DNA of 64,000 nt. Origin: a virus. Positions within the stretch are counted from its first letter, which is position 1, and every line of letters begins with the position of its first letter. A program made the position numbers and the translations under genes. Below the pieces are notes generated by a model. It saw only the letters and a list, made by a program, of their open reading frames with translations. It was not told where the DNA came from and ran no database searches. The DNA lies in the IMG/VR virus record IMGVR_UViG_3300045988_126550, positions 32,001-96,000 of that record; one strand, 5' to 3'. This document shows positions 41,888 through 58,484 of the stretch, piece by piece.

Positions 41888-42011
41888 GCGATGATAGTCC
41901 AATGGTTAAGACGGCAGCTATTATTTTGAAGTGTCTAGCTAGACACGAACAGCAAGTTTGCAAAATTAATGCTCCAAGCTGCAATTGTAGGTTCGATTCC
42001 TACTCATCGCA
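41888..42011 (+). tRNA. tRNA-like gene with a 59-nt sequence in place of the 7-nt anticodon loop (isotype undetermined; Glu/Gln-like D arm)
   Basis: Perfect 7-bp acceptor GCGATGA/TCATCGC, D arm GTC-CAATGGTTAA-GAC, T arm GTAGG-TTCGATT-CCTAC and a 5-bp stem GCAGC/GCTGC enclosing 59 nt. The enclosed sequence includes the palindrome GTGTCTAGCTAGACAC. Confidence 0.55.
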
Positions 42012-42019
42012 ATAATATG

Positions 42020-42136
42020 TCTCCTGTAGCTCAGTTGGATAGAGCACTTAATAACGAGACTTGCAAAAGCCTTAAACAGCAAATTTCTATTGGTCTGTTA
42101 AACCAGAGGTCACAGGTTCGAGCCCTGTCAGGAGAC
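42020..42136 (+). tRNA. tRNA-Asn(GTT) interrupted by a ~43-nt insertion between the D arm and the anticodon stem
   Basis: TCTCCTG-TA-GCTC-AGTTGGATA-GAGC-A-[43 nt]-TTGGT-CTGTTAA-ACCAG-AGGTC-ACAGG-TTCGAGC-CCTGT-CAGGAGA-C. Close to the E. coli tRNA-Asn layout apart from the insertion. Confidence 0.6.
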
Positions 42137-42142: not shown

Positions 42143-42197
42143 AAGGCACTAGCAGCAACTTTAAACAATATGCTGGATATTATATTGATGGTGCCTT
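42143..42197 (+). repeat. ACAGCAA-family hairpin element A
   Basis: 7-bp stem AAGGCAC/GTGCCTT enclosing an AT-rich loop that starts TA-GCAGCAA. Confidence 0.4.
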
Positions 42198-42207
42198 GCC
42201 TTACATA

Positions 42208-42275
42208 GAGACGCTTACAGCAATTTAAAAAAGATGAAAATGATATTTTTACTAATGATTTTATTTTGGCGTCTC
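42208..42275 (+). repeat. ACAGCAA-family hairpin element B
   Basis: 7-bp stem GAGACGC/GCGTCTC enclosing an AT-rich loop that starts TT-ACAGCAA. Confidence 0.4.
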
Positions 42276-42378
42276 GTTGAATAAACTCCAAAGGCACTAA
42301 CAGCAAATTTTCAATGTGGAGAATACATAAGAATGTGTCTTGGGATTTAGAAATAAATCAAAAATGGAGGAAAGAAAA

Positions 42379-43926
42379 ATGTCTTTTATGAATGCAGTAA
42401 AGAATACTTTGAATGAGGAGTTTAATTACTCGGTAACTGAAAATGGCGCCCTTGGGTATCGTACTTCTGGCAAAGAACTGACTGACCTAAACTTTGCCGT
42501 TGCCTCTATGCGCGGTATGAACGAGAAGACCATCTATGATAAGTTCACGAAGGTTTATTTCGAAGACAAGATGATGGCTTTACGTTGGTTATTTTTCGCA
42601 AGAGATGTTCGTGGCGGTCTTGGCGAGAGACGTTTGTTCAGAACGGTTCTTAAAAATATGGCAAAGGACGACCCCAATACTGTTAAACGTCTTGCCTGTC
42701 TGGTGAGCGAGTATGGCCGTTATGATGACCTGTGGTGTCTGTTTGGAACGGATGTGGATGGTGTTGTTTTCGATATCATTAAGAAGCAGCTTTCTGATGA
42801 CATCGCAAATATGGCAGAGAATAAACCCGTATCTCTTCTTGCTAAGTGGCTCCCTTCCGTAAATGCTTCTTCTACAAGAACTAAGATGGACGCAAGATAT
42901 ATTTGCAAGAATCTTGGAATGACAGAGAGTAAGTATCGTAAGATTCTTTCTTCTCTGCGTTCTTACATTGACATTGTAGAAAGTAAGATGTCTGCAAAGA
43001 AGTGGGAAGAAATTAAGTACGAAACGGTTCCTTCTCGTGCAAATCTAATCTACAACAACGCTTTCCTCCGTAACGATGAGGAGCGTCGCAGAGAGTATCT
43101 GAGCAAGCTTGAAAAGGGTGAAACTAAAATCAATGCAGGAACTTTGTTCCCCCATGACATCGTTCACAAATATTGCAGTGGACGTATGTATAGCTATGGC
43201 GTTGGTAAGTACGATGCAACTATTGAATCTCTTTGGAAGGCTTTGCCCAATACAGTAAACGAGTGTGGGAACACTATTGTGGTTGCAGATGGCTCCGGTT
43301 CTATGTACTGCAATGTTGGCGGAAATACTTGTGTTACGGCACTTGAAGTTGCAAATGCACTTGCAATTTACTTTGCAGAGCATTCTTCTGGTGACTTTAA
43401 GGATAAATACATTACTTTCTCTAGCAGACCTCAGTTGGTTGATTTTAGTCAGTGCGATTCTCTAAGAGATAAGCTACGTGTTGCATATAGTCATTACGAG
43501 TGTTCAAATACAAACATTGAAAAGGTGTTTGATTTGATTCTTACTACTGCGGTGAATGGTCATATGAAGCAGGAGGATATGCCTAAGAATGTACTGATTA
43601 TTTCAGACATGGAGTTTGACTTTTGTGCAACTTGTGGTGGTTCCAATGGATGGAGTCTTAATAGACCTAGTGCAAGACTTTTTGATGTAATCAAGAAGCG
43701 TTTCGAGGATGCTGGGTATCAGATGCCTAGACTGGTCTTCTGGAATGTAAATTCTCGTACTGGCACTATTCCTGTAAAGGAGAACGACCTTGGTGTTGCT
43801 CTTGTTAGTGGTTTCTCCACTAATGTTTGCAAGATGGTCATGAGTGGTAAGACTGATCCTTACGAGTGCCTTGTTGAGACGCTTATGAGTGAGAGATATG
43901 ATGCAGTTGAGGCTGCGTTAAAGTAA
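42379..43926 (+). CDS. DUF2828-like helical domain + C-terminal vWA protein (Ro60-like architecture)
   Basis: N-terminus TENGALGYRTSG...LDLNF...ARDVRGGLGERRLF matches my recollection of the UCP015417/DUF2828 family. C-terminal MIDAS VVADGSGSM. ATG at 42379 lies 8 nt after GGAGG. Confidence 0.75.
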   Translation: MSFMNAVKNTLNEEFNYSVTENGALGYRTSGKELTDLNFAVASMRGMNEKTIYDKFTKVYFEDKMMALRWLFFARDVRGGLGERRLFRTVLKNMAKDDPNTVKRLACLVSEYGRYDDLWCLFGTDVDGVVFDIIKKQLSDDIANMAENKPVSLLAKWLPSVNASSTRTKMDARYICKNLGMTESKYRKILSSLRSYIDIVESKMSAKKWEEIKYETVPSRANLIYNNAFLRNDEERRREYLSKLEKGETKINAGTLFPHDIVHKYCSGRMYSYGVGKYDATIESLWKALPNTVNECGNTIVVADGSGSMYCNVGGNTCVTALEVANALAIYFAEHSSGDFKDKYITFSSRPQLVDFSQCDSLRDKLRVAYSHYECSNTNIEKVFDLILTTAVNGHMKQEDMPKNVLIISDMEFDFCATCGGSNGWSLNRPSARLFDVIKKRFEDAGYQMPRLVFWNVNSRTGTIPVKENDLGVALVSGFSTNVCKMVMSGKTDPYECLVETLMSERYDAVEAALK

Positions 43927-44035: not shown

Positions 44036-44167
44036 GCGGGTATGGTGGAATCGGCAGACACAAGGGACTTGCTGATAGCCAGTGCTTTGGTAGGGGCAGC
44101 ACCTACAATCAGTACCAAAAATCCCTCGGAGAAATCCATGCGAGTTCAAATCTCGCTACCCGCACCA
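44036..44167 (+). tRNA. type II tRNA-Leu (anticodon TAA if spliced) with a 47-nt insertion in the anticodon loop; CCA encoded
   Basis: GCGGGTA-TG-GTG-GAATCGGCAGA-CAC-A-AGGGA-CTT[47 nt]AAAA-TCCCT-variable arm CGGAGAAATCCAT-GCGAG-TTCAAAT-CTCGC-TACCCGC-A-CCA. Confidence 0.65.
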
Positions 44168-48089: not shown

Positions 48090-49190
48090 ATGAGAGTGTA
48101 TATGGACAATGCTGCCACAACTCCCATTTGTGAAGCAGCAAAGAAAGTTATTCTAGAAAATTTGGATGAGTTCTATAATCCCAACAGTTCTTATGAGACG
48201 GCTCGTAATGTCAAAGTAAAGGTAGAAGAAGCACGTGAAAAGATTGCGGAGTTGATTGGGGCAGAACCAAACGAAATCTATTTCACGTCTGGTGGATCAG
48301 AAGCAAACTCATGGGTGATGTGTAATGGATTTTCTGTTACTTCTAATATTGAACATCATTCTATTAAATCAGATTTTAAAATTAATGTAGATTCAAATGG
48401 ATTGATTGATTGTACAAAATTTAAAACAAAGATACATGAAATGAAAGACAATGATTTTTGTATCCCACCAAGCATTGCATCGTGTATGTTTGTAAATAAC
48501 GAAATAGGGGTAATTGAACCAATTAAAGACTTGGCAAAGATTGCACATGACAATAATATGTTATTTCATTCAGACGCAGTACAGGCCTTCCCTCATATGA
48601 AGATTGATGTAAAAAATCTTGGCGTAGATATGATGTCGTGTTCGGGGCACAAGTTTGGTTCTCCTAAGGGGATCGGCTTCCTGTATATTAAAAATGGAAT
48701 TAGTATTAATCCATTAATTAATGGTGGCGGGCAGGAAAGAGGGATCCGAGGCGGCACGACCAATGTACTGGGCGTCCTTGCAATGGCGGCAGCTTTAGAA
48801 GATACAATCGCGCACATGGATGAAAACAACGCGAAAGTCTCTTGCTTATCAAAGAAATTAAAGGATAACTTACTTGGGGTAAAAGGAGTCACACTTAATG
48901 CAATTGATGCAAAAACTCCATGTATAGAAAGTATTTTAAACCTCAGGATTGACGATGTGAAGAGTTCTGACCTAGTCACAATGTGTGATCTATATGGCAT
49001 TGAGATTAGCTCTGGGTCGGCATGTAACGAAGGAACAGCAGAGCCTTCTCATGTGCTCAAAGCTATTGGGCTCACAACCGAACAGGCATTAAGCAGCATT
49101 AGAATCTCACTATCTCATCTAAACACTGAAGAAGAAATCGACTATGTTTCTAAAATGTTACCAAAAATTATTTCCAGATTACGCCAGTAA
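48090..49190 (+). CDS. cysteine desulfurase (NifS/IscS-like class V aminotransferase)
   Basis: YMDNAATTP, SGGSEAN, HSDAVQA, the PLP lysine in SGHKFGSPKG, and the catalytic Cys in SSGSACNEG. Confidence 0.85.
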   Translation: MRVYMDNAATTPICEAAKKVILENLDEFYNPNSSYETARNVKVKVEEAREKIAELIGAEPNEIYFTSGGSEANSWVMCNGFSVTSNIEHHSIKSDFKINVDSNGLIDCTKFKTKIHEMKDNDFCIPPSIASCMFVNNEIGVIEPIKDLAKIAHDNNMLFHSDAVQAFPHMKIDVKNLGVDMMSCSGHKFGSPKGIGFLYIKNGISINPLINGGGQERGIRGGTTNVLGVLAMAAALEDTIAHMDENNAKVSCLSKKLKDNLLGVKGVTLNAIDAKTPCIESILNLRIDDVKSSDLVTMCDLYGIEISSGSACNEGTAEPSHVLKAIGLTTEQALSSIRISLSHLNTEEEIDYVSKMLPKIISRLRQ

Positions 49191-49258: not shown

Positions 49259-49432
49259 ATGACAGAGGACAATCGTATTAAGGAAGAAGCCAAGAAGCAG
49301 AGAAATTTTTGGACATGTCCACGACCAGTGACTAAGGTTTTGCGCAACGCTAAGGCATACAACAGGGCCAAGGATCGTAAGGATAAACGATTGTATGAGG
49401 AAGACGTAGAAGATGCTATCGAAGAAAGATAA
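49259..49432 (+). CDS. small basic hypothetical protein (57 aa)
   Basis: AAAGGAGA RBS after a promoter and a leader motif. Confidence 0.45.
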   Translation: MTEDNRIKEEAKKQRNFWTCPRPVTKVLRNAKAYNRAKDRKDKRLYEEDVEDAIEER

Positions 49433-49826
49433 AAGTTATTTTAGGGCGGCTCAGGCAGTTAGCACACTATCAGATTTCAAAAGAATAAACGTAGGAGCGG
49501 TCTTGGTTTATAAGCACCGAATAATTTCAAGTTCTTGTAATTCTCAGCGGACACATCCTTTACAGCGCAAGTTGAATAAAGAAAGGTTCAACGAAGACAC
49601 TCCTGCGAAATTACATGCCGAAGTTAACTGCCTTATTTCATTACTTGGAAATAAAGATATTAAATGGAAAGACTGTGAACTCTATGTGTATAGAGAATAT
49701 AAGCGTGGAGGGTTGGCTATGAGTCGGCCTTGTCCATCCTGCCAAAAATTAATTAAAGAACTTGGCATTAAGACTGTCCATTACACTACTGACGGTGGGT
49801 ATGCCACAGAAGAATTTGAAATTTAA
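49413..49826 (+). CDS. dCMP (deoxycytidylate) deaminase
   Basis: Zinc motifs HAEVNCL and PCPSCQKLI. Confidence 0.85.
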   Translation: MLSKKDKSYFRAAQAVSTLSDFKRINVGAVLVYKHRIISSSCNSQRTHPLQRKLNKERFNEDTPAKLHAEVNCLISLLGNKDIKWKDCELYVYREYKRGGLAMSRPCPSCQKLIKELGIKTVHYTTDGGYATEEFEI

Positions 49827-50618: not shown

Positions 50619-51413
50619 ATGACAGAAGAAAGAATGAAGTTGGTAGAGCCAATTCTAAATACATTTGAAAATGAAGATATTAAAGAATTTGCTATTGTGC
50701 TACTAGACAATTTGCCAGAGTATATTTGGAGCGTACCAGCTTCAAGTACTGGTAAATATCATCCGCAATATAGCTTGGGTCTAGGTGGTTTGATGAGACA
50801 TCAGATTGCAGTTGTAAGATTCCTGAACTTTTTCTTTGAGCTTGAGCAATACCAGAACGTTATTAATAGCAGAGAGCGTGACTTAATGCGTATAGCTGGT
50901 CTTGTACATGATGGACGTAAGAGCGGCTCTCAACAGGATTTTGAGCGTTCTAAATATACCAAGTTTGACCATCCTAAGCTAATGGCAGATGTTATTACAT
51001 CATATTCTGGCAAATATTTAACAGTAGAAGAGCTTGCATTTGTTTCACGTGCTATTAATAGCCACATGGGACAATGGAATATTGATAAGAAAACTGGCAT
51101 AGAACTTCCTAAACCTTCAAATGTATATGAAGAGCTTGTTCACTTAGCCGACTATCTAGCAAGTCGTAAGTCTTTGACTATGGATTTTGAAAATATTGAA
51201 GTTCCGCGCACTGTGGTTATTAATCCAGAAGAATATGTAATGCAATTCGGCAAGTACAAGGGACAGAAAATTATTGATGTGTATCGTGAACATCCAGACT
51301 ATTTGCAATGGTGTGAGGAAAATATTGGTCGCAGAGATGTTCTAGATGCTATTGCAGCTTGTAAGAAGAAAGCGGAAGAAAAGATTGAGGCTGATGACGA
51401 TATTGATTTATAA
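50619..51413 (+). CDS. HD-domain phosphohydrolase
   Basis: GKYHP...RH...GLVHDGRK...HLADYLAS. The C-terminal FGKYKGQKIIDV...PDYLQWC module is seen in other phage and nuclease proteins. Confidence 0.75.
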   Translation: MTEERMKLVEPILNTFENEDIKEFAIVLLDNLPEYIWSVPASSTGKYHPQYSLGLGGLMRHQIAVVRFLNFFFELEQYQNVINSRERDLMRIAGLVHDGRKSGSQQDFERSKYTKFDHPKLMADVITSYSGKYLTVEELAFVSRAINSHMGQWNIDKKTGIELPKPSNVYEELVHLADYLASRKSLTMDFENIEVPRTVVINPEEYVMQFGKYKGQKIIDVYREHPDYLQWCEENIGRRDVLDAIAACKKKAEEKIEADDDIDL

Positions 51414-51428
51414 GGAGAATTAAGGCAC

Positions 51429-51908
51429 ATGGGAACTAACTTCTATATGATTACAAAGAACAAAGAAATGGCTCAGCGGTATGCACCATATTCTTATGAG
51501 CTTACGGATACGCCATATTTCGGATATGAGATTCACGTAGCCAAGACTAGTTTTGGCTGGTTGCCGCTTTTCCAAGAGCATAAAGATGGTATTAACTCTG
51601 TAGCTGAGTATAAAGTGGCATATGATACAAATGAGTTTAAAATTTATGATGAATACGGATGTGAATACAATTGGGATGCCTTTGATGATAGAGTGCTAAA
51701 GTTCAATGGCGGGGTTCTTGGGGTACAGGAGCCGAAGAAGATTGAGCAAAACAAATATTTTCGATGGTATGACAAGAGCATGCCAGACTATTGCCCTGTT
51801 AGTCATATTAGTGGAAGTCTGCAGAGCTATAAGTTTGATGGTTTGTTTGCGAATGATTATTTCGTTGACGCTGATGGATTTGAATTTTCAAGGAGTGAAT
51901 TTTCGTAA
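51429..51908 (+). CDS. hypothetical protein
   Basis: 159-aa ORF with an AAGGAGA RBS. Confidence 0.7.
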   Translation: MGTNFYMITKNKEMAQRYAPYSYELTDTPYFGYEIHVAKTSFGWLPLFQEHKDGINSVAEYKVAYDTNEFKIYDEYGCEYNWDAFDDRVLKFNGGVLGVQEPKKIEQNKYFRWYDKSMPDYCPVSHISGSLQSYKFDGLFANDYFVDADGFEFSRSEFS

Positions 51909-53023
51909 TGTATCATCTTGAACTAAGAGACTTCATTCTTTCTCATGAAAACTGGGAAGAACTACTCACAGCTGATCCTTACAACCTAAAGATTTCTCGT
52001 GATGGCAATTATATCATGTTCAAGTATAATCAAATCTCTTCTGATTTTACAATTCCTCTAGTTCGTGAAGCACGTGGAATTATTTTCAGAGAGAGTGATT
52101 GGGAATGTGTCTGCGAAAAATTTACAAAATTCGGCAATTACGGCGAGTCTTATTGCCCAGACATTGATTGGGCAACTGCTTCTGTGCAGGAAAAAGTTGA
52201 TGGATCGCTTATTGGCATGTTTTATGATAATGGATGGCATATTTGTACCAATGGTACAATTGATGCCTTTAAAGCGGAACTTAATGATGTGAAGTATCAG
52301 AATTTTGGGCAGCTTGTCCTTGCGGCAATTCATCGTGTATTTGAAGACGAGCATAAGTTCTTTACGATGCTAGATCCAAAATGTACATATATGTTTGAAC
52401 TCGTGTCTCCTTATAACCGTGTTGTAATTCCGTATGAAGACACTAAGCTATATTTTCTTGGTATACGTGATATGGAAGATGGGAAAGAATGGAATCCAGA
52501 AGATTCTGATATAAGCTATGATTTTGAAATGCCTAAGCGTTATTCTCTTCATTCTCTTGAAGATGTACAGAAGGCAGCAAATGCACTTCCTTGGGACGAA
52601 GAAGGTTATGTGGTATGCGACGCAAATTTCAACAGAGTAAAGATTAAGTCTGGTGCTTACGTTATGGCACATTATGCTCGTAATAATGGAGTAGTCAATA
52701 CAGAGCGTCTTGTTCAGATTATACTGGATGGAGAGCAGGAAGAGTTCCTTACTTATGCATCCGATTATACTGACGAGTTAAAGAAAGTGGGAAAAGCAAT
52801 GTATGAGATTGGGTATAAAGCATTTGATAAGCTGAGAGAAATTTTTAACATGAAAGAGTTTGAAACTCGTGGTGCTTATGCTCGTGAAGTTATGAAATGC
52901 CCAATGTATATGAAAGACTTCCTATTCCATTGTTTTGATTCTAGAATCTTTTGGGATTATGCAAAGTCTTGGGATGCAAATAAATGGGTTAAAGCTATTA
53001 ATGAATTAAATGGAGGTATTTAA
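51908..53023 (+). CDS. Rnl1-family (T4 RnlA-like) ATP-dependent RNA ligase
   Basis: Aligns by eye with T4 Rnl1: REARGIIF/ECRGIMF, motif I QEKVDGSL/TKEDGSL, FELVSPYNRVV/FEFVAPTNRIV and EGYVVCD..RVKIKS/EGYVAVM..HFKIKS. Confidence 0.85.
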   Translation: MYHLELRDFILSHENWEELLTADPYNLKISRDGNYIMFKYNQISSDFTIPLVREARGIIFRESDWECVCEKFTKFGNYGESYCPDIDWATASVQEKVDGSLIGMFYDNGWHICTNGTIDAFKAELNDVKYQNFGQLVLAAIHRVFEDEHKFFTMLDPKCTYMFELVSPYNRVVIPYEDTKLYFLGIRDMEDGKEWNPEDSDISYDFEMPKRYSLHSLEDVQKAANALPWDEEGYVVCDANFNRVKIKSGAYVMAHYARNNGVVNTERLVQIILDGEQEEFLTYASDYTDELKKVGKAMYEIGYKAFDKLREIFNMKEFETRGAYAREVMKCPMYMKDFLFHCFDSRIFWDYAKSWDANKWVKAINELNGGI

Positions 53024-53024
53024 T

Positions 53025-53291
53025 ATGAAGAATAATATTGGGCCAATTATTGGAATTATTGGAGTAGTTATTTTGTGGATTCTTTCTCCTATCATCATCT
53101 TCGGTGCCGGTTGGTTTGGTGGTTGGATTCTGATGAAAATTGTTGGTGGAGCAATTGCATCTGGTCTAAACACACTATTTGGAACGACTAGATTTGTTCC
53201 AGAATTAATTCCTGTTGTATGTGGAGCTCTAGCAGTTATTGGAAGTTTCTTTAAGGCTACTGTAAGTAGTAGCAATGTGATGACAAAATGA
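53025..53291 (+). CDS. small membrane protein
   Basis: Internal ATG after GGAGGT. Three hydrophobic, Gly-rich segments. Confidence 0.6.
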   Translation: MKNNIGPIIGIIGVVILWILSPIIIFGAGWFGGWILMKIVGGAIASGLNTLFGTTRFVPELIPVVCGALAVIGSFFKATVSSSNVMTK

Positions 53292-54097
53292 ATTATCATT
53301 CAGATCAGTGGATTATGGATAGGGTTCAAGAGCACTATAATGAGGCTCTTGAATCCTTTCCGAAGGACAGAATTATTGGCATCTTCTATCAAGGCAGTGG
53401 CAATTATGGGCTTGATTATGAAGGTTCAGATGTTGACACCAAACTGATTGTAACACCAACATTTAAGGATATTGCAATGAATAAGAATCCCGTTAGTACA
53501 ACTCATATTCGAGCCAACGACGAACATACAGACTGGAAGGACATTAGGCTCTATATTCAGACATTTAGGAAGCAGAACTTGAATTTTCTAGAAATTCTTT
53601 TCACAACATACAAAGTCCTAAATCCTATGTATGAGGAACAGTGGAACAGACTTATTGATGCCAGAGAAGGTATTGCACGTTACTCTCCCATTCAAGCCAT
53701 TAAGTCTATGAGAGGAATCGCTAAAGAAAAGTATTTTGCAATGGAACATCATTATCCGTCTCGTATGGAGTGGATTAACAAATTTGGATACGATCCAAAA
53801 CAACTACACCATTTATTACGTGTAGAGGAGTATATTGAAAGATATATTAATGGTGAGTCCTATGAGAAATGTCTACAATCAAAAATGCCGGAGTTTCTCA
53901 AACAGGTAAAGACTGGAGAGTCTTTTGATTTGGGCACAGCAAGAATTGTGGCGGAAAAGTCAATTGGTCATATTGACGAAATGTGTGATAAGTTCTTAAA
54001 AAGAGAATGGAGCGTTGACGAAATTATTAATGCTTTGTTAGACAGTGTGCAATATGAAATTATGAGGATTGCAATTAAGAAAGAGATTGGTGGTTAA
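53288..54097 (+). CDS. Pol-beta superfamily nucleotidyltransferase (RNA-ligase-associated RlaP-like)
   Basis: GSGNYGLDYEGSDVDTK (GS...DxD). Adjacent to RNA ligase and kinase genes. Confidence 0.7.
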   Translation: MNYHSDQWIMDRVQEHYNEALESFPKDRIIGIFYQGSGNYGLDYEGSDVDTKLIVTPTFKDIAMNKNPVSTTHIRANDEHTDWKDIRLYIQTFRKQNLNFLEILFTTYKVLNPMYEEQWNRLIDAREGIARYSPIQAIKSMRGIAKEKYFAMEHHYPSRMEWINKFGYDPKQLHHLLRVEEYIERYINGESYEKCLQSKMPEFLKQVKTGESFDLGTARIVAEKSIGHIDEMCDKFLKREWSVDEIINALLDSVQYEIMRIAIKKEIGG

Positions 54098-54718
54098 ATG
54101 ATTAACATTCGTCAAGACTTGATTCAAAAGGAGTTTGAAAAAGGTTGTACCAATGGGCTTACATTTCGAAAATTAAAGCCTAGCAATAGATTTATTGATA
54201 AGCTTTTTAATCATTACTATGTTGCCGAGCACACAGAACATTTCTATGATTCTGAGCCGGAATATGATGATGAAGAATTCAATATGTATATGGATTACGC
54301 TTATATTCATCATAGAATAAATCCTACTTCTGGCACTGCTCTTTTTAATACAATTCTTAATTCTGAAGAAATAGCAAAAGAACAAGAAGACTTTCGTTTT
54401 TCAAAAGAAGAACACACAATAGAAGAACTAAAGCAAGCGTATGATAAAATTATACAACAGAGAAAAGATTATGAGCTACACAGAATTGAATTTAACAACT
54501 GGATAGAGCCTTATTTTAAGGGTAATTGGAGAATGTCTCAGAAAGATGTTGACAAAATTAGCAGAGAGCATCTTGAATACACAAAGAAATGTGGAGTAAG
54601 TTATAATGGCAGACTTTACATTGCAGAAAAAGAAGATTCGATTTTTATTTATTACTACGGCAGAGATTTTGCAATGGTAGATTATTGGTGGATTTTTAAG
54701 AGAAGAAGGAGAAAATAA
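54098..54718 (+). CDS. hypothetical protein
   Basis: 206-aa ORF, tightly packed. Confidence 0.7.
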   Translation: MINIRQDLIQKEFEKGCTNGLTFRKLKPSNRFIDKLFNHYYVAEHTEHFYDSEPEYDDEEFNMYMDYAYIHHRINPTSGTALFNTILNSEEIAKEQEDFRFSKEEHTIEELKQAYDKIIQQRKDYELHRIEFNNWIEPYFKGNWRMSQKDVDKISREHLEYTKKCGVSYNGRLYIAEKEDSIFIYYYGRDFAMVDYWWIFKRRRRK

Positions 54719-55623
54719 TGGTTAAGTGTTTTGTTATGTGTGGACTCCCCGCAAGCGGAAAGAGTTGGCAAGCCAAGAAACTTGCCGAGGAATATGATGC
54801 AGAAATTTTCTCTAGTGACTCACTTCGAGAGGAAATGTTCGGAGATGTGAATCATCAGGCAGACAACGATGCTCTGTTCAAGGAACTACATAAGCGTATT
54901 AGAGAGCGTCTTGCTTCTGGCAAGAATGCCATTTATGACGCCTGCAATATCAGTTATAAGCGCCGTATGGAATTCCTTAAGTCTCTTAACAAAATTCCTT
55001 GTGAGAAAATTGCAATCCTCATGGCAACGCCTTATGAAGTCTGTCTTGAACGTAACACACAACGAGAGCGTAAAGTCCCAGAACATGTTATTAAACGTAT
55101 GTATATGAGCTGGAATAGTCCATATTGGTATGAAGGTTGGGACGATATTCAGATTGTATATTCAGAAGGAGCAGAAGGAAGCTACGGAGGAGTAGGTGAT
55201 TGGGTTGAGTCTGTTATGGATTACAACCAACATAACAGCCATCATTCTTTAACACTTGGGGAACATTGTCTCAAAACATTCGAATACTTAAATTCATTGC
55301 CAGTTGCATTCTGGGAACTTAGAACTGCGGCGTTGATACATGATTGTGGCAAATGCAAAAGTGCTACATATATCAATAGTAAGGGCGAACAAACGGATGA
55401 ATGCCATTATTATAATCACCAATTTTGTGGATCATACGACAGCTTGTTCTTCAGCGGTATAGATAGACATCTTTATATTGCGCAACTTATTCAATGGCAT
55501 ATGAGAGCGTACCTTGCGTGGGAGCATTCTGAAAAAGCAATGCAGAAGGATAGAAAACTTCTTGGGAAGACTTTATTTAATGATATTTGTTTGCTTCACG
55601 AAGCAGACCTTGCAGCGCATTAA
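54718..55623 (+). CDS. polynucleotide kinase-like P-loop domain fused to an HD phosphohydrolase domain
   Basis: Walker A CGLPASGKS and a kinase-like N-terminal half. The C-terminal half carries HSLTLGEH...LIHDCGK...H. A terminator follows. Confidence 0.75.
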   Translation: MVKCFVMCGLPASGKSWQAKKLAEEYDAEIFSSDSLREEMFGDVNHQADNDALFKELHKRIRERLASGKNAIYDACNISYKRRMEFLKSLNKIPCEKIAILMATPYEVCLERNTQRERKVPEHVIKRMYMSWNSPYWYEGWDDIQIVYSEGAEGSYGGVGDWVESVMDYNQHNSHHSLTLGEHCLKTFEYLNSLPVAFWELRTAALIHDCGKCKSATYINSKGEQTDECHYYNHQFCGSYDSLFFSGIDRHLYIAQLIQWHMRAYLAWEHSEKAMQKDRKLLGKTLFNDICLLHEADLAAH

Positions 55624-55629
55624 CCAATT

Positions 55630-55655
55630 GGTACGGCATTTTCGCCGTACCTTTT
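55630..55655 (+). terminator. rho-independent terminator
   Basis: GGTACGGC-attttc-GCCGTACC followed by TTTT. Confidence 0.8.
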
Positions 55656-55670
55656 GTGCATGTTGACAAC

Positions 55671-55698
55671 TTGACAAATAGCAAATTCATGCTATAAT
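55671..55698 (+). promoter_or_regulatory. sigma-A-type promoter (extended -10)
   Basis: TTGACA-N16-TGcTATAAT. A second TTGACA lies 8 nt upstream. Confidence 0.65.
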
Positions 55699-55718
55699 AA
55701 TGGCAGAAACAAGAACAA

Positions 55719-55729
55719 TACAAAATTAA
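55719..55729 (+). promoter_or_regulatory. leader motif TACAAAATTAA (exact)
   Basis: 14 nt upstream of ATG 55744. Confidence 0.55.
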
Positions 55730-55743
55730 AGGAGGATAAATAT

Positions 55744-56325
55744 ATGAGAACTATTAGAAGAGGAGTGTTTGAATCGAACTCGTCCAGCACACACAGCATT
55801 GCAATTAGTAAAGAAAAGGTTCCAAATGTAGCCGGTAGACATGTTTATTTTGGAGCTGGTGAGTACGGTTGGGAACAAGGTTGCGTAGGAGACACCGCAT
55901 CATATTTGCATACGGCAATTGTTGACTCTTCTACTCCTGCACAATACGAGGAGAGAATCAATAAGATTAAAGAAATTCTTGACAAGTATGGGGTGCAATA
56001 TAAATTCGCGCCAGTTGAATATCAGAAGTCTGAGTACAATCCCGATTATGAATATATTAAATTTGCATCTCCTAGTTATAGATATGCGTATGTTGATCAC
56101 GCAGGAGAGTGTGCAAAACTAATTAATGCACTGCTTTCAAACGAAGACCTTCTAATTAGATATCTTTTTGGCAATAGTTGCATTTATACCGGCAATGATA
56201 ATTCTGATGACGAAGACAGTATGTGCTATTGCGCAGAGGCAACTATTTGGGATGATAATTATAAAACTATCCCAAACCCAAATCACGACGCAGAACATTA
56301 TGATTACTTTTTTAAGGGGAATTGA
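55744..56325 (+). CDS. hypothetical protein, FE(S/T)NSSSTHS family, paralog 1
   Basis: N-terminus MRTIRRGVFESNSSSTHSIAI. Paralog of the next gene. Confidence 0.7.
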   Translation: MRTIRRGVFESNSSSTHSIAISKEKVPNVAGRHVYFGAGEYGWEQGCVGDTASYLHTAIVDSSTPAQYEERINKIKEILDKYGVQYKFAPVEYQKSEYNPDYEYIKFASPSYRYAYVDHAGECAKLINALLSNEDLLIRYLFGNSCIYTGNDNSDDEDSMCYCAEATIWDDNYKTIPNPNHDAEHYDYFFKGN

Positions 56326-56327
56326 TT

Positions 56328-56738
56328 ATGAGACAGATTAGAAAGAATGTATTTGAAACAAATAGTTCTTCTACTCATTCACTAACAATGTGTACAAAAG
56401 AAGAATATGATAATTGGAAAAGCGGAAAACTTATGTTTGATATAGATAGTAAGAAATTTGTATCTCCGCTAGAAGTAACAAGTAAAGATTTCAAGGAAGC
56501 GGAAATTAATTATGAATCCAGCAAACAAAAATATCAGAAAAATTGGGATCAGCTGACTAAAGAAGAACAAGAAGAATATACACTTGGGTATATTAAAGAG
56601 AATAAGTCAATGTATGAAATTGTAACATATTCTGAGTGGCTAGATAGAAATGATTATCTAGACACATTCTATAGAGAATATACTACTAAAAACAACGAAA
56701 GAATTGTGGCTTTCGGCGCTTATGGCTACGATGGTTAA
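56328..56738 (+). CDS. hypothetical protein, FE(S/T)NSSSTHS family, paralog 2
   Basis: N-terminus MRQIRKNVFETNSSSTHSLTM. ATG after AAGGGGA. Confidence 0.7.
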   Translation: MRQIRKNVFETNSSSTHSLTMCTKEEYDNWKSGKLMFDIDSKKFVSPLEVTSKDFKEAEINYESSKQKYQKNWDQLTKEEQEEYTLGYIKENKSMYEIVTYSEWLDRNDYLDTFYREYTTKNNERIVAFGAYGYDG

Positions 56739-56748
56739 GGAGGAAAAT

Positions 56749-57648
56749 ATGAATCTTATTGGCAAGTATCAGAATGGGAATTATACCGTGAGTTTGTACG
56801 ATGATGGAACTAAGATTCGTGAGAATGATTTGGATAATCTGACTCCTGCTTTTGCAGAGAACTGTGATGTTAAAATTACAGATAAGTGTGATGGAGGTTG
56901 CGCCTTCTGCTATGAGGGATGTACTGCTAATGGTAAACACGGGGATATTCTTAATCCTCAGTTTCTAGATACTCTGCATCAATATACTGAGCTTGCTATC
57001 AATGGCAACGACCTTTCTCATCCAGATTTGGTTCCTTTCATGTACAAGATGAAAGAGAAGAATATCATTCTCAATATGACGGTCAATCAGATTCATTTTG
57101 AGAAGCACTTTGATACAATCAAGGAATGGATTGATAAGAAGTTAATTTATGGGCTTGGCATCTCTCTACGTAAGCCGACAGATGAATTCATTGATATGGT
57201 TAAGCAGATTCCAAACGCCGTTATTCATGTAATCAATGGTATTGTTTCTATACCAGATCTTGATGCTCTTTCTAGAAATGGGCTTAAAATTCTTATTCTT
57301 GGATATAAGAATCTAAGACGTGGTGAAAGTTATTATGAGAGTCACAATGAAAGTGTACTTGGATTACAGGAAGATTTAAACCGCTACCTTTTCCCTGAAA
57401 TTATCGGGCACAGTTGGTTTGACGTTGTGAGTTTTGATAATCTAGCAATCGAACAGCTTCATGTTAAAGAACATATGTCTAAGGAAGAATGGGATAGTTT
57501 CTTTATGGGCGAAGACGGCGATTATACTTTCTATATTGATATGGTCGAAGGAATGTTCGCAAAAGATTCCTTGTCTATGGAACGTTATCCTCTTATGGAT
57601 AATATTGATGATATGTTTAACTTTTTGAGAAATAAGAAGGAGAAGTAA
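56749..57648 (+). CDS. radical SAM enzyme
   Basis: CxxxCxxC cluster in ITDKCDGGCAFCYEG. Internal ATG after AAGGAGGA. Confidence 0.75.
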   Translation: MNLIGKYQNGNYTVSLYDDGTKIRENDLDNLTPAFAENCDVKITDKCDGGCAFCYEGCTANGKHGDILNPQFLDTLHQYTELAINGNDLSHPDLVPFMYKMKEKNIILNMTVNQIHFEKHFDTIKEWIDKKLIYGLGISLRKPTDEFIDMVKQIPNAVIHVINGIVSIPDLDALSRNGLKILILGYKNLRRGESYYESHNESVLGLQEDLNRYLFPEIIGHSWFDVVSFDNLAIEQLHVKEHMSKEEWDSFFMGEDGDYTFYIDMVEGMFAKDSLSMERYPLMDNIDDMFNFLRNKKEK

Positions 57649-57650
57649 TT

Positions 57651-58484
57651 ATGGATAAGACATCTCTTGGTGATAGAATGAAAAACAACTATGAAAATGT
57701 TAATAGATTTTATTTAACAAGAAGAATACCAGTTATTATTAGAATGGATATGAAGGCCGGTCATACTTTTACTAGAGGAATGAAGAAGCCGTTTGATGAT
57801 ATTTTCGTAAAGACAATGCAAGAGACTATGAAGTATCTCTGTGAAAACATTCAGGGTTGTGTGCTTGGTTACACTCAGAGCGACGAGATTTCTCTTGTAC
57901 TGACAGACTATGCAGGGTTGACAACAGATGCATGGTTTGGAAACAATCTACAGAAGATGTGTAGCGTATCTGCGAGTATGGCAACATTGGCATTTAATAA
58001 AGCATTTAACGACAATATTGTAAAGTATATTGACAGTTATTTTGATACCGATTGTGGGGTTACGAAGGATTTAGCTGAATATACAAAGATTCTCATTAAT
58101 GCAAGAAATAAAGGCGCAATGTTTGACTCTCGTGTTTTTACAATTCCTAAAGAGGAGGCATGCAACTACTTCATCTGGAGACAGCAAGATGCCACTCGCA
58201 ATTCCATCCAGTCTGTGGGTCAAGCAAACTTTAGTGATAAAGAATTGCATAAGAAATCCACTAAAGACATTCAAGATATGCTTATGACTCAGAAAGGTAT
58301 CAACTGGAATGACTATGCAACGACTCTAAAGCGTGGTAGCTGTTGTATTAAAGCCGATGATAGTCTTACCGAGTATGACGAGGTGGGAAATATTTGTGGT
58401 TATATCCAGAGAAGTAAGTGGGTAATCGATAATAAAATTCCTATCTTTACTCAGGACAGAAACTATGTTGAAAAGCTAATTTGA
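57651..58484 (+). CDS. Thg1-like protein (tRNA-His guanylyltransferase family, 3'-5' nucleotidyl addition)
   Basis: PVIIRMDMKAGHTFTRGMKKPFD and GYTQSDEISLVL match the Thg1/TLP core motifs. Confidence 0.8.
   Translation: MDKTSLGDRMKNNYENVNRFYLTRRIPVIIRMDMKAGHTFTRGMKKPFDDIFVKTMQETMKYLCENIQGCVLGYTQSDEISLVLTDYAGLTTDAWFGNNLQKMCSVSASMATLAFNKAFNDNIVKYIDSYFDTDCGVTKDLAEYTKILINARNKGAMFDSRVFTIPKEEACNYFIWRQQDATRNSIQSVGQANFSDKELHKKSTKDIQDMLMTQKGINWNDYATTLKRGSCCIKADDSLTEYDEVGNICGYIQRSKWVIDNKIPIFTQDRNYVEKLI

What the first reader, a model, noticed from the sequence alone, without database searches (positions are those of the whole stretch)
50619..58484. A complete RNA healing, sealing and end-repair toolkit: HD, Rnl1 ligase, Pol-beta nucleotidyltransferase, kinase-HD fusion, radical SAM and Thg1-like enzyme
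Within 8 kb lie six enzymes:
- an HD phosphohydrolase (50619)
- an Rnl1-type RNA ligase (51908)
- a Pol-beta-fold nucleotidyltransferase (53288)
- a P-loop polynucleotide-kinase-like domain fused to an HD domain (54718), instead of the HAD phosphatase of T4 Pnkp
- a radical SAM enzyme (56749)
- a Thg1-like protein (57651)

Three points are established knowledge. T4 Pnkp plus Rnl1 repair anticodon-loop breaks made by the host nuclease PrrC. Thg1-like proteins rebuild 5'-truncated tRNAs by 3'-5' addition. Fungal and plant tRNA splicing ligase uses the same ligase, kinase and cyclic-phosphodiesterase chemistry.

The set here would cover 2',3'-cyclic phosphate opening (HD), 5' phosphorylation (kinase), sealing (Rnl1), 5'-end rebuilding (Thg1-like) and possibly 3'-end rebuilding (nucleotidyltransferase). 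That combination is larger than the classical T4 pair.

It sits about 4 kb from tRNA genes interrupted by short non-ribozyme insertions. My hypothesis is that these enzymes, together with an unidentified endonuclease, also splice the phage's own interrupted tRNAs and do not only counter host anticodon nucleases. This link is inference only.
Basis: partly seen in the sequence, partly recalled or inferred. Interest (0 to 1): 0.75.

Follow-up and report, generated by a model that had tools for sequence, protein, structure and literature searches.

The report
Phage RNA repair kit near odd tRNAs
A large gut phage carries a real but already-known kind of RNA break-repair gene set, and beside it lie a Ro60-like RNA-binding protein with a new family of partner RNAs and a transfer-RNA gene split by a tiny transfer-RNA-shaped insert, which may link repair enzymes to a new kind of RNA splicing.

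Summary
All six enzymes are present at the stated coordinates and pass family, motif or fold tests. They are not one unit. A terminator-like hairpin and a perfect sigma-70 promoter at 55630-55698 split them into two operons.

- Operon 1: HD, Rnl1, RlaP-like NTase, Pnk-HD.
- Operon 2: two paralogues of unknown function, radical SAM, Thg1-like.

In about 50 related phage contigs the conserved core is RNA ligase + RlaP-like NTase + Pnk-HD, and the ligase family is swapped (Rnl1 versus OB + Rnl2-type). Such phage kits are already described (Aravind group 2010, 2021), so this is a new member of a known kind.

The tRNA-splicing link is unproven, and the "interrupted tRNAs" are of two kinds.

- Two carry a hairpin + ACAGCAA module. 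The same module is found in stem-loops that pile up upstream of an adjacent Ro60-like gene (42379-43926) in 80 loci, and also in Listeria phage P100 and Bacillus phage MrDarsey. These are probably Y-RNA-like partners, not introns.
- tRNA-Leu(UAA) has a 47-nt insert exactly between U34 and A35. It covaries as a tRNA minihelix ending in ACCA, which is a classic RNase P substrate shape. Excision by host tRNA nucleases followed by Rnl1 sealing is a testable new splicing idea.

The parts
50619..51413 (+). Stand-alone HD phosphohydrolase with an ExoX-like C-terminal motif; first gene of operon 1
   Evidence: Pfam HD 6e-7, ExoX-like_C 1.9e-9; phrog_5889 3e-49. H48, HD97-98 and D178 are present, and the start has a strong RBS. 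No solved relative was found by sequence. Conserved near the kit in most relatives.
51429..51908 (+). 159-aa protein of unknown function that sits just upstream of the ligase slot
   Evidence: No family hit. 74-88% identical copies precede either the Rnl1 gene or the OB+RNA_ligase gene in relatives.
51908..53023 (+). Rnl1-family ATP-dependent RNA ligase
   Evidence: PF09511 1e-15; phrog_562 1e-48; TIGR02308 9e-19, below its equivalog cut-off. T4 Rnl1 2c5u 2e-17. KVDG(96), EGYV(232) and KIKS(245) are present.
53010..53291 (+). Small membrane protein (93 aa) between ligase and NTase
   Evidence: Hydrophobic sequence. Conserved at 41-90% identity upstream of the NTase in relatives.
53288..54097 (+). 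Pol-beta-fold nucleotidyltransferase, divergent RlaP-like (RNA-ligase-associated)
   Evidence: phrog_388 2e-18. Pfam RlaP E=0.033, sub-threshold. Close homologues carry PF10127. GSGNYGLDYEGSDVD motif. Always next to an RNA ligase in relatives.
54098..54718 (+). 206-aa protein of unknown function
   Evidence: No family hit. Present only in the closest relatives.
54718..55623 (+). Polynucleotide 5'-kinase fused to a C-terminal HD phosphoesterase (Pnk-HD); last gene of operon 1
   Evidence: AAA_33 1e-24; bacter_Pnkp 8e-17. CthPnk 4gp7 1e-13. Walker A, SSD and H..HDCGK..HEAD are present. Full-length homologues lie next to Rnl1 in Tsamsa-like phages.
55630..55698 (+). Transcription-unit boundary: terminator-like hairpin (55630-55651) followed by a consensus promoter (55671-55698)
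   Evidence: Hairpin of 8 bp with 6 GC pairs plus a T-run. Promoter TTGACA-16-TG-TATAAT scores 12/12. This is the only intergenic gap over 60 nt in the cluster. These are pattern matches only.
55744..56738 (+). Two paralogous proteins (193 and 138 aa) sharing an N-terminal VFE(S/T)NSSSTHS motif; function unknown
   Evidence: Sequences and motif. phrog_28997 2.5e-13. They co-travel with the radical SAM gene even in distant loci L039 and L043.
56749..57648 (+). Radical SAM superfamily enzyme, substrate unknown
   Evidence: CxxxCxxC is invariant. phrog_16999 2e-37. BFVD radical SAM hits at 6e-13. PDB gives only weak TIM-barrel and radical SAM hits.
57651..58484 (+). Thg1-like protein (bacterial TLP type 3'-5' polymerase)
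   Evidence: PF04446 2e-25; phrog_4717 8e-92. BtTLP 4kgk 1.5e-65. D33 and S77-D78-E79 are present.
42379..43926 (+). Context: Ro60-like RNA-binding protein (TROVE-type helical ring + vWA), Pfam DUF2828 + DUF7788
   Evidence: Pfam 2.5e-34 and 1e-45. phrog_850 'RNA-binding protein' 3e-140. The top six Foldseek PDB hits for the AF2 model (pLDDT 76) are all Ro60: 9kop 1.5e-9, 9l5y, 1yvp, 9nen.
41888..42136 (+). Context: two tRNA-like genes (Trp-CCA-like 41888-42011, Asn-GUU-like 42020-42136) with 43-59-nt inserts carrying hairpin + ACAGCAA
   Evidence: Rfam tRNA 49.8 and 41.9 bits, with 58- and 56-nt inserts. Conserved in relatives. The motif is shared with the stem-loops.
42143..42341 (+). Context: three tandem stem - NN - [AG]CAGCAA - AT-rich loop - stem elements directly upstream of the Ro60-like gene; a fourth lies at 43933-43993
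   Evidence: In 80 loci there are 402 plus-strand against 7 minus-strand ACAGCAA copies in the 2 kb upstream of the gene.
44036..44167 (+). Context: tRNA-Leu(UAA) with a 47-nt tRNA-minihelix-like insert (44071-44117) between U34 and A35
   Evidence: Rfam tRNA 43.1 bits. ARAGORN reports i(36,47). Intron-less alleles in L057 and L063 fix the boundaries. P1 and P2 covary.

Best explanation
The stretch encodes a phage RNA end-healing and sealing kit. It belongs to a roughly 160-kb phage of a Clostridia-type host.

**Functional core (operon 1).** It contains an ATP-dependent RNA ligase (Rnl1), a RlaP-like nucleotidyltransferase and a Pnk-HD fusion, preceded by a stand-alone HD hydrolase.

**Proposed mechanism (inferred from the families, not shown here).**
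1. [quoted passage not shown]
2. The HD domain opens and removes the 3' phosphate.
3. The P-loop kinase phosphorylates the 5' end.
4. The RlaP-like enzyme restores one or two lost 3' nucleotides.
5. Rnl1 seals the break.

**Operon 2.** The Thg1-like enzyme would rebuild 5'-truncated tRNA ends. The radical SAM gene and its two paralogous neighbours form a separate module of unknown role that happens to lie between the two.
For: **Shown here**
- Family, motif and fold support for each enzyme.
- Translational coupling within each unit, and a terminator/promoter pair between the units.
- In 52 related loci the NTase and Pnk-HD stay together with an RNA ligase. The ligase slot holds either Rnl1 or an OB + PF09414 ligase, so a different ligase type fills the same position.
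- The same Rnl1 + Pnk-HD pair occurs in Tsamsa-like Bacillus phages. Those phages also have the Ro60-like protein, and phage FADO has the Thg1-like gene as well.

**Established knowledge**
- T4 Pnkp/Rnl1 act against PrrC.
- RlaP adds 1-2 nt to damaged RNA 3' ends (PMC12776372).
- HD-Pnk is a 2',3'-phosphoesterase/5'-kinase (Munir & Shuman 2017, cited in PMC6097658).
- TLPs repair tRNA 5' ends (PMC3061083).
- Phage kits of this make-up are described in PMC7824862 and PMC2904730.
Against: - There is no biochemical or expression data for any of these proteins.
- The host and its nucleases are unknown, because the contig is metagenomic.
- The HD half of Pnk-HD and the RlaP assignment are below Pfam thresholds for this sequence itself.
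- HD1 has no characterised relative, so its cyclic-phosphodiesterase role is a guess.
- Pnk-HD enzymes also act on DNA ends.
- The Thg1-like gene is in another operon, and in many relatives DNA-metabolism genes separate it from the core.
Confidence: 0.65

Rival explanations
1. First reader's hypothesis in a narrowed form. The kit, above all Rnl1, also splices phage tRNA genes that carry short tRNA-shaped inserts. In the window this is tRNA-Leu(UAA) at 44036-44167. The insert folds as a tRNA minihelix ending in NCCA. Host RNase P would cut at its 5' edge and a 3' tRNA-processing nuclease after the CCA. The exon halves, held together by the tRNA fold, would then be joined in the anticodon loop by the ligase.
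For: - The insert lies exactly between U34 and A35. Intron-less alleles in L057 and L063 have identical flanks.
- Ten variants keep 47-49 nt. P1 (6-7 bp) and P2 (5 bp) show 2-5 pair types per position, apart from one invariant P2 pair, with 1 non-pair in 110 cells, plus a 3' NCCA.
- A 7+5 bp stack, a 7-nt loop and NCCA make up the classic RNase P model substrate (established knowledge).
- RNase P leaves 3'-OH and 5'-P ends, which is what Rnl1 needs.
- Precise removal restores canonical 7-nt anticodon loops in Leu UAA, Gln UUG, UAU and Lys UUU tRNAs.
- Longer inserts are whole tRNA-like genes. One is called tRNA(CUA) by ARAGORN.
- Lak megaphages have 'enigmatic' tRNA introns, one of which may encode a tRNA (PMC6784885).
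- All insert-bearing relatives examined carry an RNA ligase.
Against: - There is no RNA evidence of splicing.
- The nuclease for the 3' cut is unidentified, and CCA usually blocks RNase Z in Bacillus-type systems.
- The P2 loop (GGCAGCA or GUCAUCA) is not a T-loop.
- Co-occurrence with ligases is uninformative because no ligase-free relative was found.
- Tsamsa-like phages have the same enzymes but uninterrupted tRNA arrays.
- The interrupted gene could simply be tolerated or non-functional.
Confidence: 0.2
2. The repair enzymes work together with the neighbouring Ro60-like protein and its stem-ACAGCAA RNAs, including the two tRNA-like genes at 41888-42136. This would be an RNA quality-control and repair ribonucleoprotein system, analogous to the Salmonella rsr-yrlBA-rtcBA operon. 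On this view the 'interrupted tRNAs' are Y-RNA-type tRNA mimics and are never spliced.
For: - The fold match to Ro60 covers the full length.
- The ACAGCAA motif is plus-strand only and concentrated in the 2 kb upstream of the gene in 80 loci (402 against 7).
- 284 unique copies give the consensus AAAGRCRC-NN-ACAGCAA-TTTT. 44% are closed by a stem of at least 7 bp, against 8% of control positions, with 59 distinct stems.
- The same elements occur upstream of the homologue in Listeria phage P100 and Bacillus phage MrDarsey.
- 101 of 154 unique insert-bearing tRNA-like genes carry the motif, and the copies listed lie 50-1500 bp upstream of that gene.
- Relatives also keep normal Asn and Trp genes.
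- Known Y RNAs lie within 4 kb of Ro60 on the same strand and mimic tRNA (PMC4201824).
- The P100-like phage CKA15 has very abundant unannotated transcripts just upstream of its Rsr-like gene (PMC12282133).
- Iyer et al. list ROT/TROVE with a tRNA-like partner among phage RNA-repair parts.
Against: - Binding of the RNAs by the protein is untested.
- The motif differs from the GNCGAA/CGAA Ro-binding motif, and the Rfam YrlA match is weak (23.6 bits against 69).
- The Ro-like gene and the repair operon are 6.7 kb apart and in different transcription units.
- In other phages the two are scattered across the genome.
- The anticodon nucleotides flanking the inserts are conserved. This would also fit real tRNAs.
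Confidence: 0.3
3. The genes are unrelated neighbours in an early nucleotide-metabolism and replication region. Pnk-HD and the HD hydrolase would process DNA ends or nucleotides, and the Thg1-like enzyme would only mature a tRNA (for example G-1 of tRNA-His).
For: - The surroundings are rich in DNA enzymes: Pol III alpha, DnaB-like, RecJ, NAD-dependent DNA ligase, dCMP deaminase, and homing endonucleases.
- Characterised HD-Pnk enzymes heal DNA as well as RNA ends.
- In L015-type relatives the Thg1-like and HD1 genes are separated from the core by Toprim, deaminase and RecJ genes.
Against: - The ligase-NTase-kinase triad is conserved while the ligase family is exchanged.
- Rnl1 and RlaP are RNA-specific families.
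- Genes within operon 1 are translationally coupled.
Confidence: 0.1

Closest known systems
T4 Pnkp + Rnl1 tRNA restriction-repair pair (counter to PrrC)
   Same: An Rnl1-family ligase with the catalytic lysine and motifs IV and V, plus a P-loop polynucleotide 5'-kinase encoded close by. Predicted heal-and-seal chemistry in tRNA anticodon loops.
   Different: - The 3' healing domain is HD, not HAD.
- The kinase is closer to bacterial Pnkp (C. thermocellum) than to T4.
- Extra RlaP-like NTase, stand-alone HD and Thg1-like enzymes are present.
- The ligase is only about 25% identical to T4 Rnl1 and is below the NCBIfam equivalog cut-off.
[quoted passage not shown]
   Same: One polypeptide that combines an HD 2',3'-phosphoesterase with a 5'-OH polynucleotide kinase. 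It is encoded next to an ATP-dependent ligase, with overlapping ORFs.
   Different: - The domain order is reversed here (kinase at the N-terminus, HD at the C-terminus).
- The partner ligase is Rnl1-type.
- There is no Tpt1 or MTase-HIT partner.
- No sequence match to a solved HD-Pnk was obtained.
Phage RNA-repair repertoires described by the Aravind group (Anantharaman 2010; Burroughs & Aravind 2016; Iyer 2021)
   Same: The same parts list: Rnl1/Rnl2 ligases, PNK, an HD-type phosphatase in a minority of phages, RlaP NTase mirroring the ligases, sporadic Thg1, and ROT/TROVE with a tRNA-like partner.
   Different: - Those surveys covered jumbo phages and cellular genomes. This is a clade of ~80-186-kb gut-metagenome phage contigs.
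- Here the ligase slot is visibly exchanged between close relatives.
- The Ro-like protein belongs to the DUF2828 family, with a different RNA motif.
Salmonella rsr-yrlBA-rtcBA RNA repair operon / bacterial and phage Ro60-Y RNA RNPs
   Same: A Ro60-fold protein with several small structured RNAs encoded just upstream on the same strand. Some of these RNAs have a tRNA-like domain. RNA ligase genes lie nearby.
   Different: - The protein is DUF2828 + DUF7788, not Pfam TROVE.
- The RNA motif is ACAGCAA after a GRCRC stem strand, not GNCGAA.
- The tRNA-like members are not circularly permuted.
- The ligase is ATP-dependent Rnl1, not RtcB.
Lak megaphage 'enigmatic' tRNA introns (Devoto et al. 2019)
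   Same: Short inserts in phage tRNA genes that are not recognisable ribozymes. Alleles with and without the insert exist, and one insert may itself encode a tRNA.
   Different: - A different phage group and host.
- Here the inserts form a covarying minihelix + NCCA family placed at U34 of UNN-anticodon tRNAs, alongside a second, ACAGCAA-type class.
- Neither paper nor this work shows how they are removed.

Membership tests
Rnl1 (T4 RnlA-type RNA ligase) | Pfam RNA_lig_T4_1 above the gathering score | tested here: met
   58.5 bits against a cut-off of 28.3
Rnl1 (T4 RnlA-type RNA ligase) | Motif I lysine (KxDG) plus motifs IV (EGYV) and V (KxK) | tested here: met
   K96 is aligned to T4 K99. 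EGYV232 and KIKS245 are present.
Rnl1 (T4 RnlA-type RNA ligase) | NCBIfam equivalog score (same function as T4 RnlA) | tested here: not met
   TIGR02308 scores 67.8 bits against a cut-off of 242
Rnl1 (T4 RnlA-type RNA ligase) | C-terminal domain that confers tRNA specificity | tested here: inconclusive
   The profile alignment spans residues 34-365, but the phmmer alignment to 2c5u stops at residue 292.
Polynucleotide kinase of the bacterial Pnkp clade | Walker A GxxxxGK(S/T) and a catalytic Asp after the P-loop | tested here: met
   GLPASGKS at residue 9. SSD at 32-34 aligns with the SSD of CthPnk.
HD-Pnk (Runella type) | N-terminal HD, C-terminal kinase | tested here: not met
   The order here is kinase (1-150) followed by HD (170-301).
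HD superfamily (C-terminal half of 54718-55623) | H...HD...D metal ligands; Pfam HD gathering score | tested here: inconclusive
   The residues are present, but Pfam scores 19.2 bits against 22.
RlaP (PF10127) | Pfam gathering score | tested here: not met
   14.3 bits against 23, E=0.033. However, 72-79% identical homologues are listed with PF10127.
RlaP (PF10127) | Pol-beta hG[GS]...DxD motif and a gene next to an RNA ligase | tested here: met
   Adjacency is seen in the window and in relatives.
Thg1 / Thg1-like proteins | Pfam Thg1 above the cut-off, catalytic carboxylates, and closest solved relative a bacterial TLP | tested here: met
   89.4 bits against 29.2. 4kgk at 1.5e-65. D33 and D78/E79 are present.
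Radical SAM superfamily | CxxxCxxC cluster motif and partial TIM-barrel fold | tested here: met
   The motif is invariant. BFVD radical SAM hits at 6e-13. Pfam is below its cut-off for this protein.
Ro60 / TROVE proteins (ORF 42379-43926) | Helical ring plus vWA domain fold | tested here: met
   The top six Foldseek hits are Ro60 over 500-580 columns, E 1.5e-9 to 9e-6.
Ro60 / TROVE proteins (ORF 42379-43926) | Pfam TROVE domain match | tested here: not met
   Only DUF2828 and DUF7788 are reported.
YrlA Y RNA (RF02553) | Rfam gathering score; GNCGAA Ro-binding motif | tested here: not met
   23.6 bits against 69. The conserved motif is ACAGCAA.
Archaeal/eukaryal protein-spliced tRNA introns | Bulge-helix-bulge at the exon-intron junctions; usual site 37/38 | tested here: not met
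   The folds show no BHB. The sites are 26-28, 33/34 and 34/35.
Group I self-splicing tRNA introns | Rfam Intron_gpI match and size over 200 nt | tested here: not met
   There is no hit in 41300-46400 at E<=1 and the inserts are 43-59 nt. Relative L062 does have a 762-nt group I-like insert at the same Leu site.
tRNA minihelix (RNase P model substrate), for the 47-nt insert | A stack of about 12 bp (7+5) with a contiguous 3' strand, a 7-nt loop and a 3' NCCA | tested here: met
   Curated alignment of 10 variants. The T-loop consensus is not met. Cleavage itself is not testable with these tools.

The most novel reading that the evidence does not exclude
The short inserts in this phage clade's tRNA genes are tRNA-shaped introns. 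In the window this is the 47-nt insert at 44071-44117 in tRNA-Leu(UAA). In relatives there are 48-93-nt inserts, including whole tRNAs nested in anticodon loops.

The proposal is that the host's own tRNA-processing nucleases cut them out: RNase P at the 5' edge, and a 3' tRNA nuclease after the NCCA. The phage Rnl1-type ligase then rejoins the anticodon loop. That would be a tRNA splicing pathway in bacteria that needs neither a self-splicing intron nor a splicing endonuclease. It would also give the phage 'repair' ligase a housekeeping role.
Probability: 0.15. Interest if true: 0.9.

Novelty: new member of a known kind. Interest (0 to 1): 0.6.

Why it matters
The enzyme set itself adds one more, unusually complete, example of phage countermeasures against tRNA-cutting host defences. 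It also shows ligase families being swapped within one conserved slot, which is useful for choosing enzymes to characterise, the Pnk-HD fusion above all.

The surroundings matter more.

1. A Ro60-like protein family is present in more than 700 sequenced phages, including Felix O1, Listeria P100 and mycobacteriophages. It now has a candidate RNA partner with a simple signature: stem, two nucleotides, ACAGCAA. This can be tested directly in cultivable phages.
2. The covarying, tRNA-minihelix-shaped inserts sit at the wobble position of UNN tRNAs. They offer a concrete, testable mechanism for the 'enigmatic' phage tRNA introns reported in 2019, and a possible second job for phage RNA ligases.

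Tried and rejected
- **Megablast of the 7.9-kb region against 50,697 phage records:** no match. An exact DNA pattern from the tRNA-like gene in IMG/VR gave no match either.
- **Ribozyme or known RNA family in the inserts and spacers:** the Rfam scan of 41300-46400 at E<=1 gave only tRNAs and a weak YrlA hit. The same holds for P100 and MrDarsey, apart from tRNAs and a ROOL-like RNA in P100.
- **Bulge-helix-bulge introns:** not seen in the folds.
- **Specific function for the radical SAM enzyme:** PDB phmmer found nothing relevant. The PDB Foldseek search gave only weak TIM-barrel, EpeE and TigE matches. Only superfamily membership could be established.
- **HD1:** no solved relative by sequence.
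- **NTase:** no PDB hit by sequence.
- **Ro-like protein:** no PDB hit by sequence. Only the fold search worked.
- **MAFFT alignment of the 47-nt inserts (A3):** it mis-registered P1 between the 6-bp and 7-bp variants, so pair counts were made on a hand-curated structural alignment instead.
- **Co-occurrence test of inserts against ligase:** uninformative, because every relative examined has some RNA ligase.
- **Idea that ACAGCAA is a general genome motif:** rejected. Outside 41.9-45 kb its copies are few and lie in coding sequence.
- **Literature:** no paper on DUF2828 in phages or on nested tRNAs in phages was found in the held library, other than the Lak paper.

Full report
**1. Observation**

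The window is one-directional phage DNA (36% G+C). Its DNA polymerase III alpha is 55% identical to that of Clostridium phage c-st. No phage record is close at the DNA level. IMG/VR holds about 50 related contigs of 80-186 kb, mostly from one metagenome.

- **Stand-alone HD:** Pfam HD 6e-7; phrog_5889 3e-49.
- **Rnl1:** PF09511 1e-15. T4 Rnl1 structure 2e-17, with the adenylylated lysine aligned. Motifs KVDG, EGYV and KIKS are present.
- **Pol-beta NTase:** phrog_388 2e-18 and a GS..DVD motif.
- **Kinase-HD fusion:** AAA_33 1e-24. C. thermocellum Pnkp kinase 1e-13. Walker A and SSD motifs, plus H..HDCGK..HEAD.
- **Radical SAM:** invariant CxxxCxxC. The AF2 model matches phage radical SAM proteins at 6e-13.
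- **Thg1-like:** PF04446 2e-25; B. thuringiensis TLP 1.5e-65.

Two assignments are below Pfam's own thresholds for this sequence. One is RlaP for the NTase (E=0.033). The other is HD for the C-terminal half of the fusion (19.2 against 22 bits). The RlaP call is backed by 72-79% identical homologues that carry PF10127. The HD call is backed by the metal-ligand residues.

**2. Anatomy**

Genes overlap or abut, with gaps of -19 to +15 nt. The exception is one 120-nt gap after the Pnk-HD gene. That gap holds a strong terminator-like hairpin (55630-55651) and a 12/12 consensus extended -10 promoter (55671-55698). These are pattern matches, not proof. If real, they split the region into two units.

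- **Operon 1:** HD, a 159-aa unknown, Rnl1, a small membrane protein, the NTase, a 206-aa unknown, Pnk-HD.
- **Operon 2:** two paralogues with an N-terminal NSSSTHS motif, the radical SAM enzyme, the Thg1-like enzyme.

**3. Comparative evidence**

I ran a tblastn matrix of the window's proteins against 52 related loci.

- The NTase and Pnk-HD stay together almost everywhere. HD1 and the Thg1-like gene are usually within 10 kb.
- Rnl1 is found only in the six closest loci.
- In L006-type relatives the same slot, between the 159-aa protein and the membrane protein/NTase, holds a 492-aa OB-fold + PF09414 ligase with a KMHGT motif.
- L015-type relatives have PF09414 ligase, NTase, Pnk-HD, then Toprim, dCMP deaminase, HD1 and RecJ before the Thg1-like gene, and they have no radical SAM gene.
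- The radical SAM gene always travels with an NSSSTHS paralogue, even where it lies 8 kb from the Thg1-like gene (L039, L043).

The functional core is therefore ligase + RlaP-like NTase + Pnk-HD, with non-orthologous replacement of the ligase. That is good evidence that these three work together. The radical SAM module is a separate insert.

**4. What is known**

- The Rnl1 + Pnk-HD pair occurs, annotated but uncharacterised, in Tsamsa-like Bacillus phages.
- Thg1-like genes are in 163 phage records.
- Thg1 + PNK + RNA ligase neighbourhoods and a predicted tRNA repair/splicing role were published in 2010 (PMC2904730).
- The 2021 jumbo-phage survey lists exactly this repertoire: Rnl1/Rnl2/RtcB, PNK, HAD or, rarely, HD phosphatases, RlaP, CCA-adding enzyme, sporadic Thg1, and ROT/TROVE with a tRNA-like partner (PMC7824862).
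- RlaP adds one or two nucleotides to damaged RNA 3' ends (PMC12776372).
- HD-Pnk, with the opposite domain order, is a proven 2',3'-phosphoesterase/5'-kinase.

The toolkit is therefore a new member of a known kind. Its most likely role is healing and sealing tRNAs cut by host nucleases. This is inferred from the families, not shown.

**5. The 'interrupted tRNAs'**

Rfam finds three tRNA-like genes with 43-59-nt inserts, at 41888-42011, 42020-42136 and 44036-44167. It also finds a UAU tRNA with a 22-nt extra arm. There is no bulge-helix-bulge and no ribozyme family match. The three genes fall into two classes.

**Class A: the Trp-CCA-like and Asn-GUU-like genes**

- Their inserts contain a hairpin followed by ACAGCAA. 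The same heptamer begins the loop of stem-loops at 42143-42341 and 43933-43993.
- These elements flank ORF 42379-43926, which is Pfam DUF2828 + DUF7788 and phrog_850 'RNA-binding protein'.
- The AF2 model of that ORF (pLDDT 76) has Ro60 structures as its top six PDB matches, over the full length: phage phiLo Ro60 at 1.5e-9, then Xenopus and human Ro60.
- In 80 loci with homologues 61-93% identical, ACAGCAA occurs 402 times on the coding strand in the 2 kb upstream of the gene, 7 times on the other strand, and hardly anywhere else.
- The 284 unique copies give the consensus AAAGRCRC-NN-ACAGCAA-TTTT. 44% are closed by a stem of at least 7 bp, against 8% of control positions, with 59 different stem sequences.
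- The same elements sit upstream of the homologue in Listeria phage P100 and Bacillus phage MrDarsey.
- In a P100-like phage, very abundant unannotated transcripts were reported just upstream of the Rsr-like gene and were tentatively called Y RNAs (PMC12282133).
- Of 154 unique insert-bearing tRNA-like genes in all loci, 101 carry the motif, and the copies listed lie 50-1500 bp upstream of the Ro60-like gene.
- Relatives also keep ordinary Asn and Trp genes further along the array.

Bacterial and phage Y RNAs are known to lie next to Ro60 on the same strand and to mimic tRNA (PMC4201824). Class A is therefore better explained as Y-RNA-like partners of the Ro60-like protein than as genes awaiting splicing. 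This remains an inference, and binding is untested. One point against it: the anticodon nucleotides next to the inserts are conserved between diverged orthologues.

**Class B: tRNA-Leu(UAA)**

- Relatives L057 and L063 have the uninterrupted gene (…GGGACTTAAAATCCC…). The window and several others have 47 nt inserted exactly between U34 and A35. L062 has a 762-nt group I-like intron with an HNH ORF at the same site.
- Ten variants of the short insert, in Leu and Gln tRNAs of different backbones, keep 47-49 nt and share one architecture:
  - a 6-7-bp stem P1;
  - a 12-14-nt linker;
  - a 5-bp stem P2 with a 7-nt loop;
  - a 3' strand of P2 that runs straight into that of P1;
  - a tail of ACCA (ACAA in one variant).
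- P1 positions show 2-5 pair types and 1 non-pair in 60 cells. P2 has no non-pair in 50 cells.

This is the geometry of a tRNA acceptor/T-arm minihelix with discriminator and CCA, the classic RNase P model substrate. That is established knowledge; cleavage was not tested.

Longer inserts in relatives (73-93 nt) are complete tRNA-like structures. One is called tRNA(CUA) by ARAGORN. All sites are in anticodon loops of UNN-anticodon tRNAs (Leu UAA, Gln UUG, UAU, Lys UUU), mostly just after U34. That is where several anticodon nucleases cut and where Rnl1-type ligases act.

Lak megaphages were reported to have 'enigmatic' tRNA introns, one of which may encode a tRNA (PMC6784885).

**6.

There is no direct evidence that the kit splices anything. 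For two of the three genes another explanation fits better.

For the Leu gene, a modified version is attractive and testable.

1. RNase P would cut at the 5' edge of the insert, leaving a 3'-OH on the 5' exon.
2. A cut after the NCCA would leave a 5'-phosphate on the 3' exon.
3. Rnl1 could join these ends without healing.

The weak points are the unknown 3' nuclease, the non-canonical loop, and the fact that every relative has a ligase, so co-occurrence says nothing. I give this reading 0.15-0.2.

**7. Verdict**

- The finding itself is a new member of a known kind.
- The neighbourhood holds two things that deserve follow-up in their own right: a Ro60-like protein with a new candidate RNA partner family found across many phages, and a covarying tRNA-minihelix insert family in phage tRNA genes.

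Noticed in passing
window 42379-43926 (+): A Ro60-like protein (Pfam DUF2828 + DUF7788) sits in the middle of the tRNA array. Its predicted fold matches Ro60/TROVE structures over the full length. Homologues occur in 710 phage records, including Felix O1, Listeria P100, mycobacteriophages and Tsamsa-like phages.
   Followed up: yes
window 42143-42341 and 43933-43993; also L070-L149 (about 1000-3000), L150 2660-2900, L151 2450-2900: A repeated plus-strand element: a 6-9-bp stem (5' strand about AAGRCRC), 0-2 nt, [AG]CAGCAA, an AT-rich loop of 30-56 nt, then the closing stem. Several tandem copies lie directly upstream of the Ro60-like gene in many phage groups. No Rfam family matches. It is a candidate Y-RNA-like partner.
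   Followed up: partly
window 41888-42011 and 42020-42136: Trp(CCA)-like and Asn(GUU)-like tRNA genes carry inserts of 59 and about 43 nt, at 33/34 and at about 27/28. The inserts contain a hairpin + ACAGCAA and are conserved in relatives with different insert sequences. Relatives also have normal Asn and Trp genes.
   Followed up: partly
window 44036-44167 (insert 44071-44117): tRNA-Leu(UAA) is split between U34 and A35 by a 47-nt element that covaries as a tRNA minihelix ending in ACCA. Close relatives have the same gene without the insert.
   Followed up: yes
L055 8093-8243, L057 6166-6319, L063 6530-6682, L089 489-655: Whole tRNA-like genes (73-93 nt, with an acceptor stem, a T-arm and NCCA) are nested inside the anticodon loops of other tRNA genes. 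The inner one in L057 is called tRNA(CUA), a possible amber suppressor, by ARAGORN.
   Followed up: partly
L062 5645-6493: A tRNA-Leu(UAA) gene carries a 762-nt group I-like intron (Rfam 35.4 bits, E=5e-7) containing an HNH-type ORF. It sits at the same anticodon-loop site as the 47-nt insert of the window.
   Followed up: partly
window 45077-45172: A tRNA with anticodon UAU has a 21-22-nt extra arm in the variable region, conserved in L055, L056 and L060. L059 has a 75-nt UAU tRNA of unrelated sequence. Its nature was not examined.
   Followed up: no
L006 2764-4242; L015 1-405: In relatives the Rnl1 gene is replaced, at the same position, by a 492-aa OB-fold + PF09414 RNA ligase. This is non-orthologous replacement within a conserved ligase-NTase-kinase block.
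   Followed up: yes
window 55744-56738: Two adjacent paralogues share the N-terminal motif VFE(S/T)NSSSTHS. They always accompany the radical SAM gene in relatives and have no family annotation. They may be its substrates or partners.
   Followed up: no
window 48060-49190 and 49413-49826: A NifS/IscS-type cysteine desulfurase (Aminotran_5, 2e-62) and a dCMP/cytidine deaminase lie between the tRNA array and the repair genes. The desulfurase could serve tRNA thiolation or the Fe-S cluster of the radical SAM enzyme.
   Followed up: no
window 44170-44556, 44634-45076, 45380-45735: Long non-coding spacers of 350-440 nt lie between tRNA genes, with no Rfam match at E<=1. Their content is unknown.
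   Followed up: no
L150 1471-2022 (Listeria phage P100): A ROOL-like large RNA (Rfam 86 bits, below the cut-off of 99, E=2e-16) lies among the tRNAs about 1 kb upstream of the Ro60-like gene.
   Followed up: no
window 12554-14479, 16491-18104, 30686-31438, 46315-46809: Two tyrosine-recombinase-type genes and several homing-endonuclease-like genes (NUMOD1, HNH_3 + AP2, HNH fragments right after tRNA-Lys) are present. This is a mosaic region rich in mobile elements.
   Followed up: no
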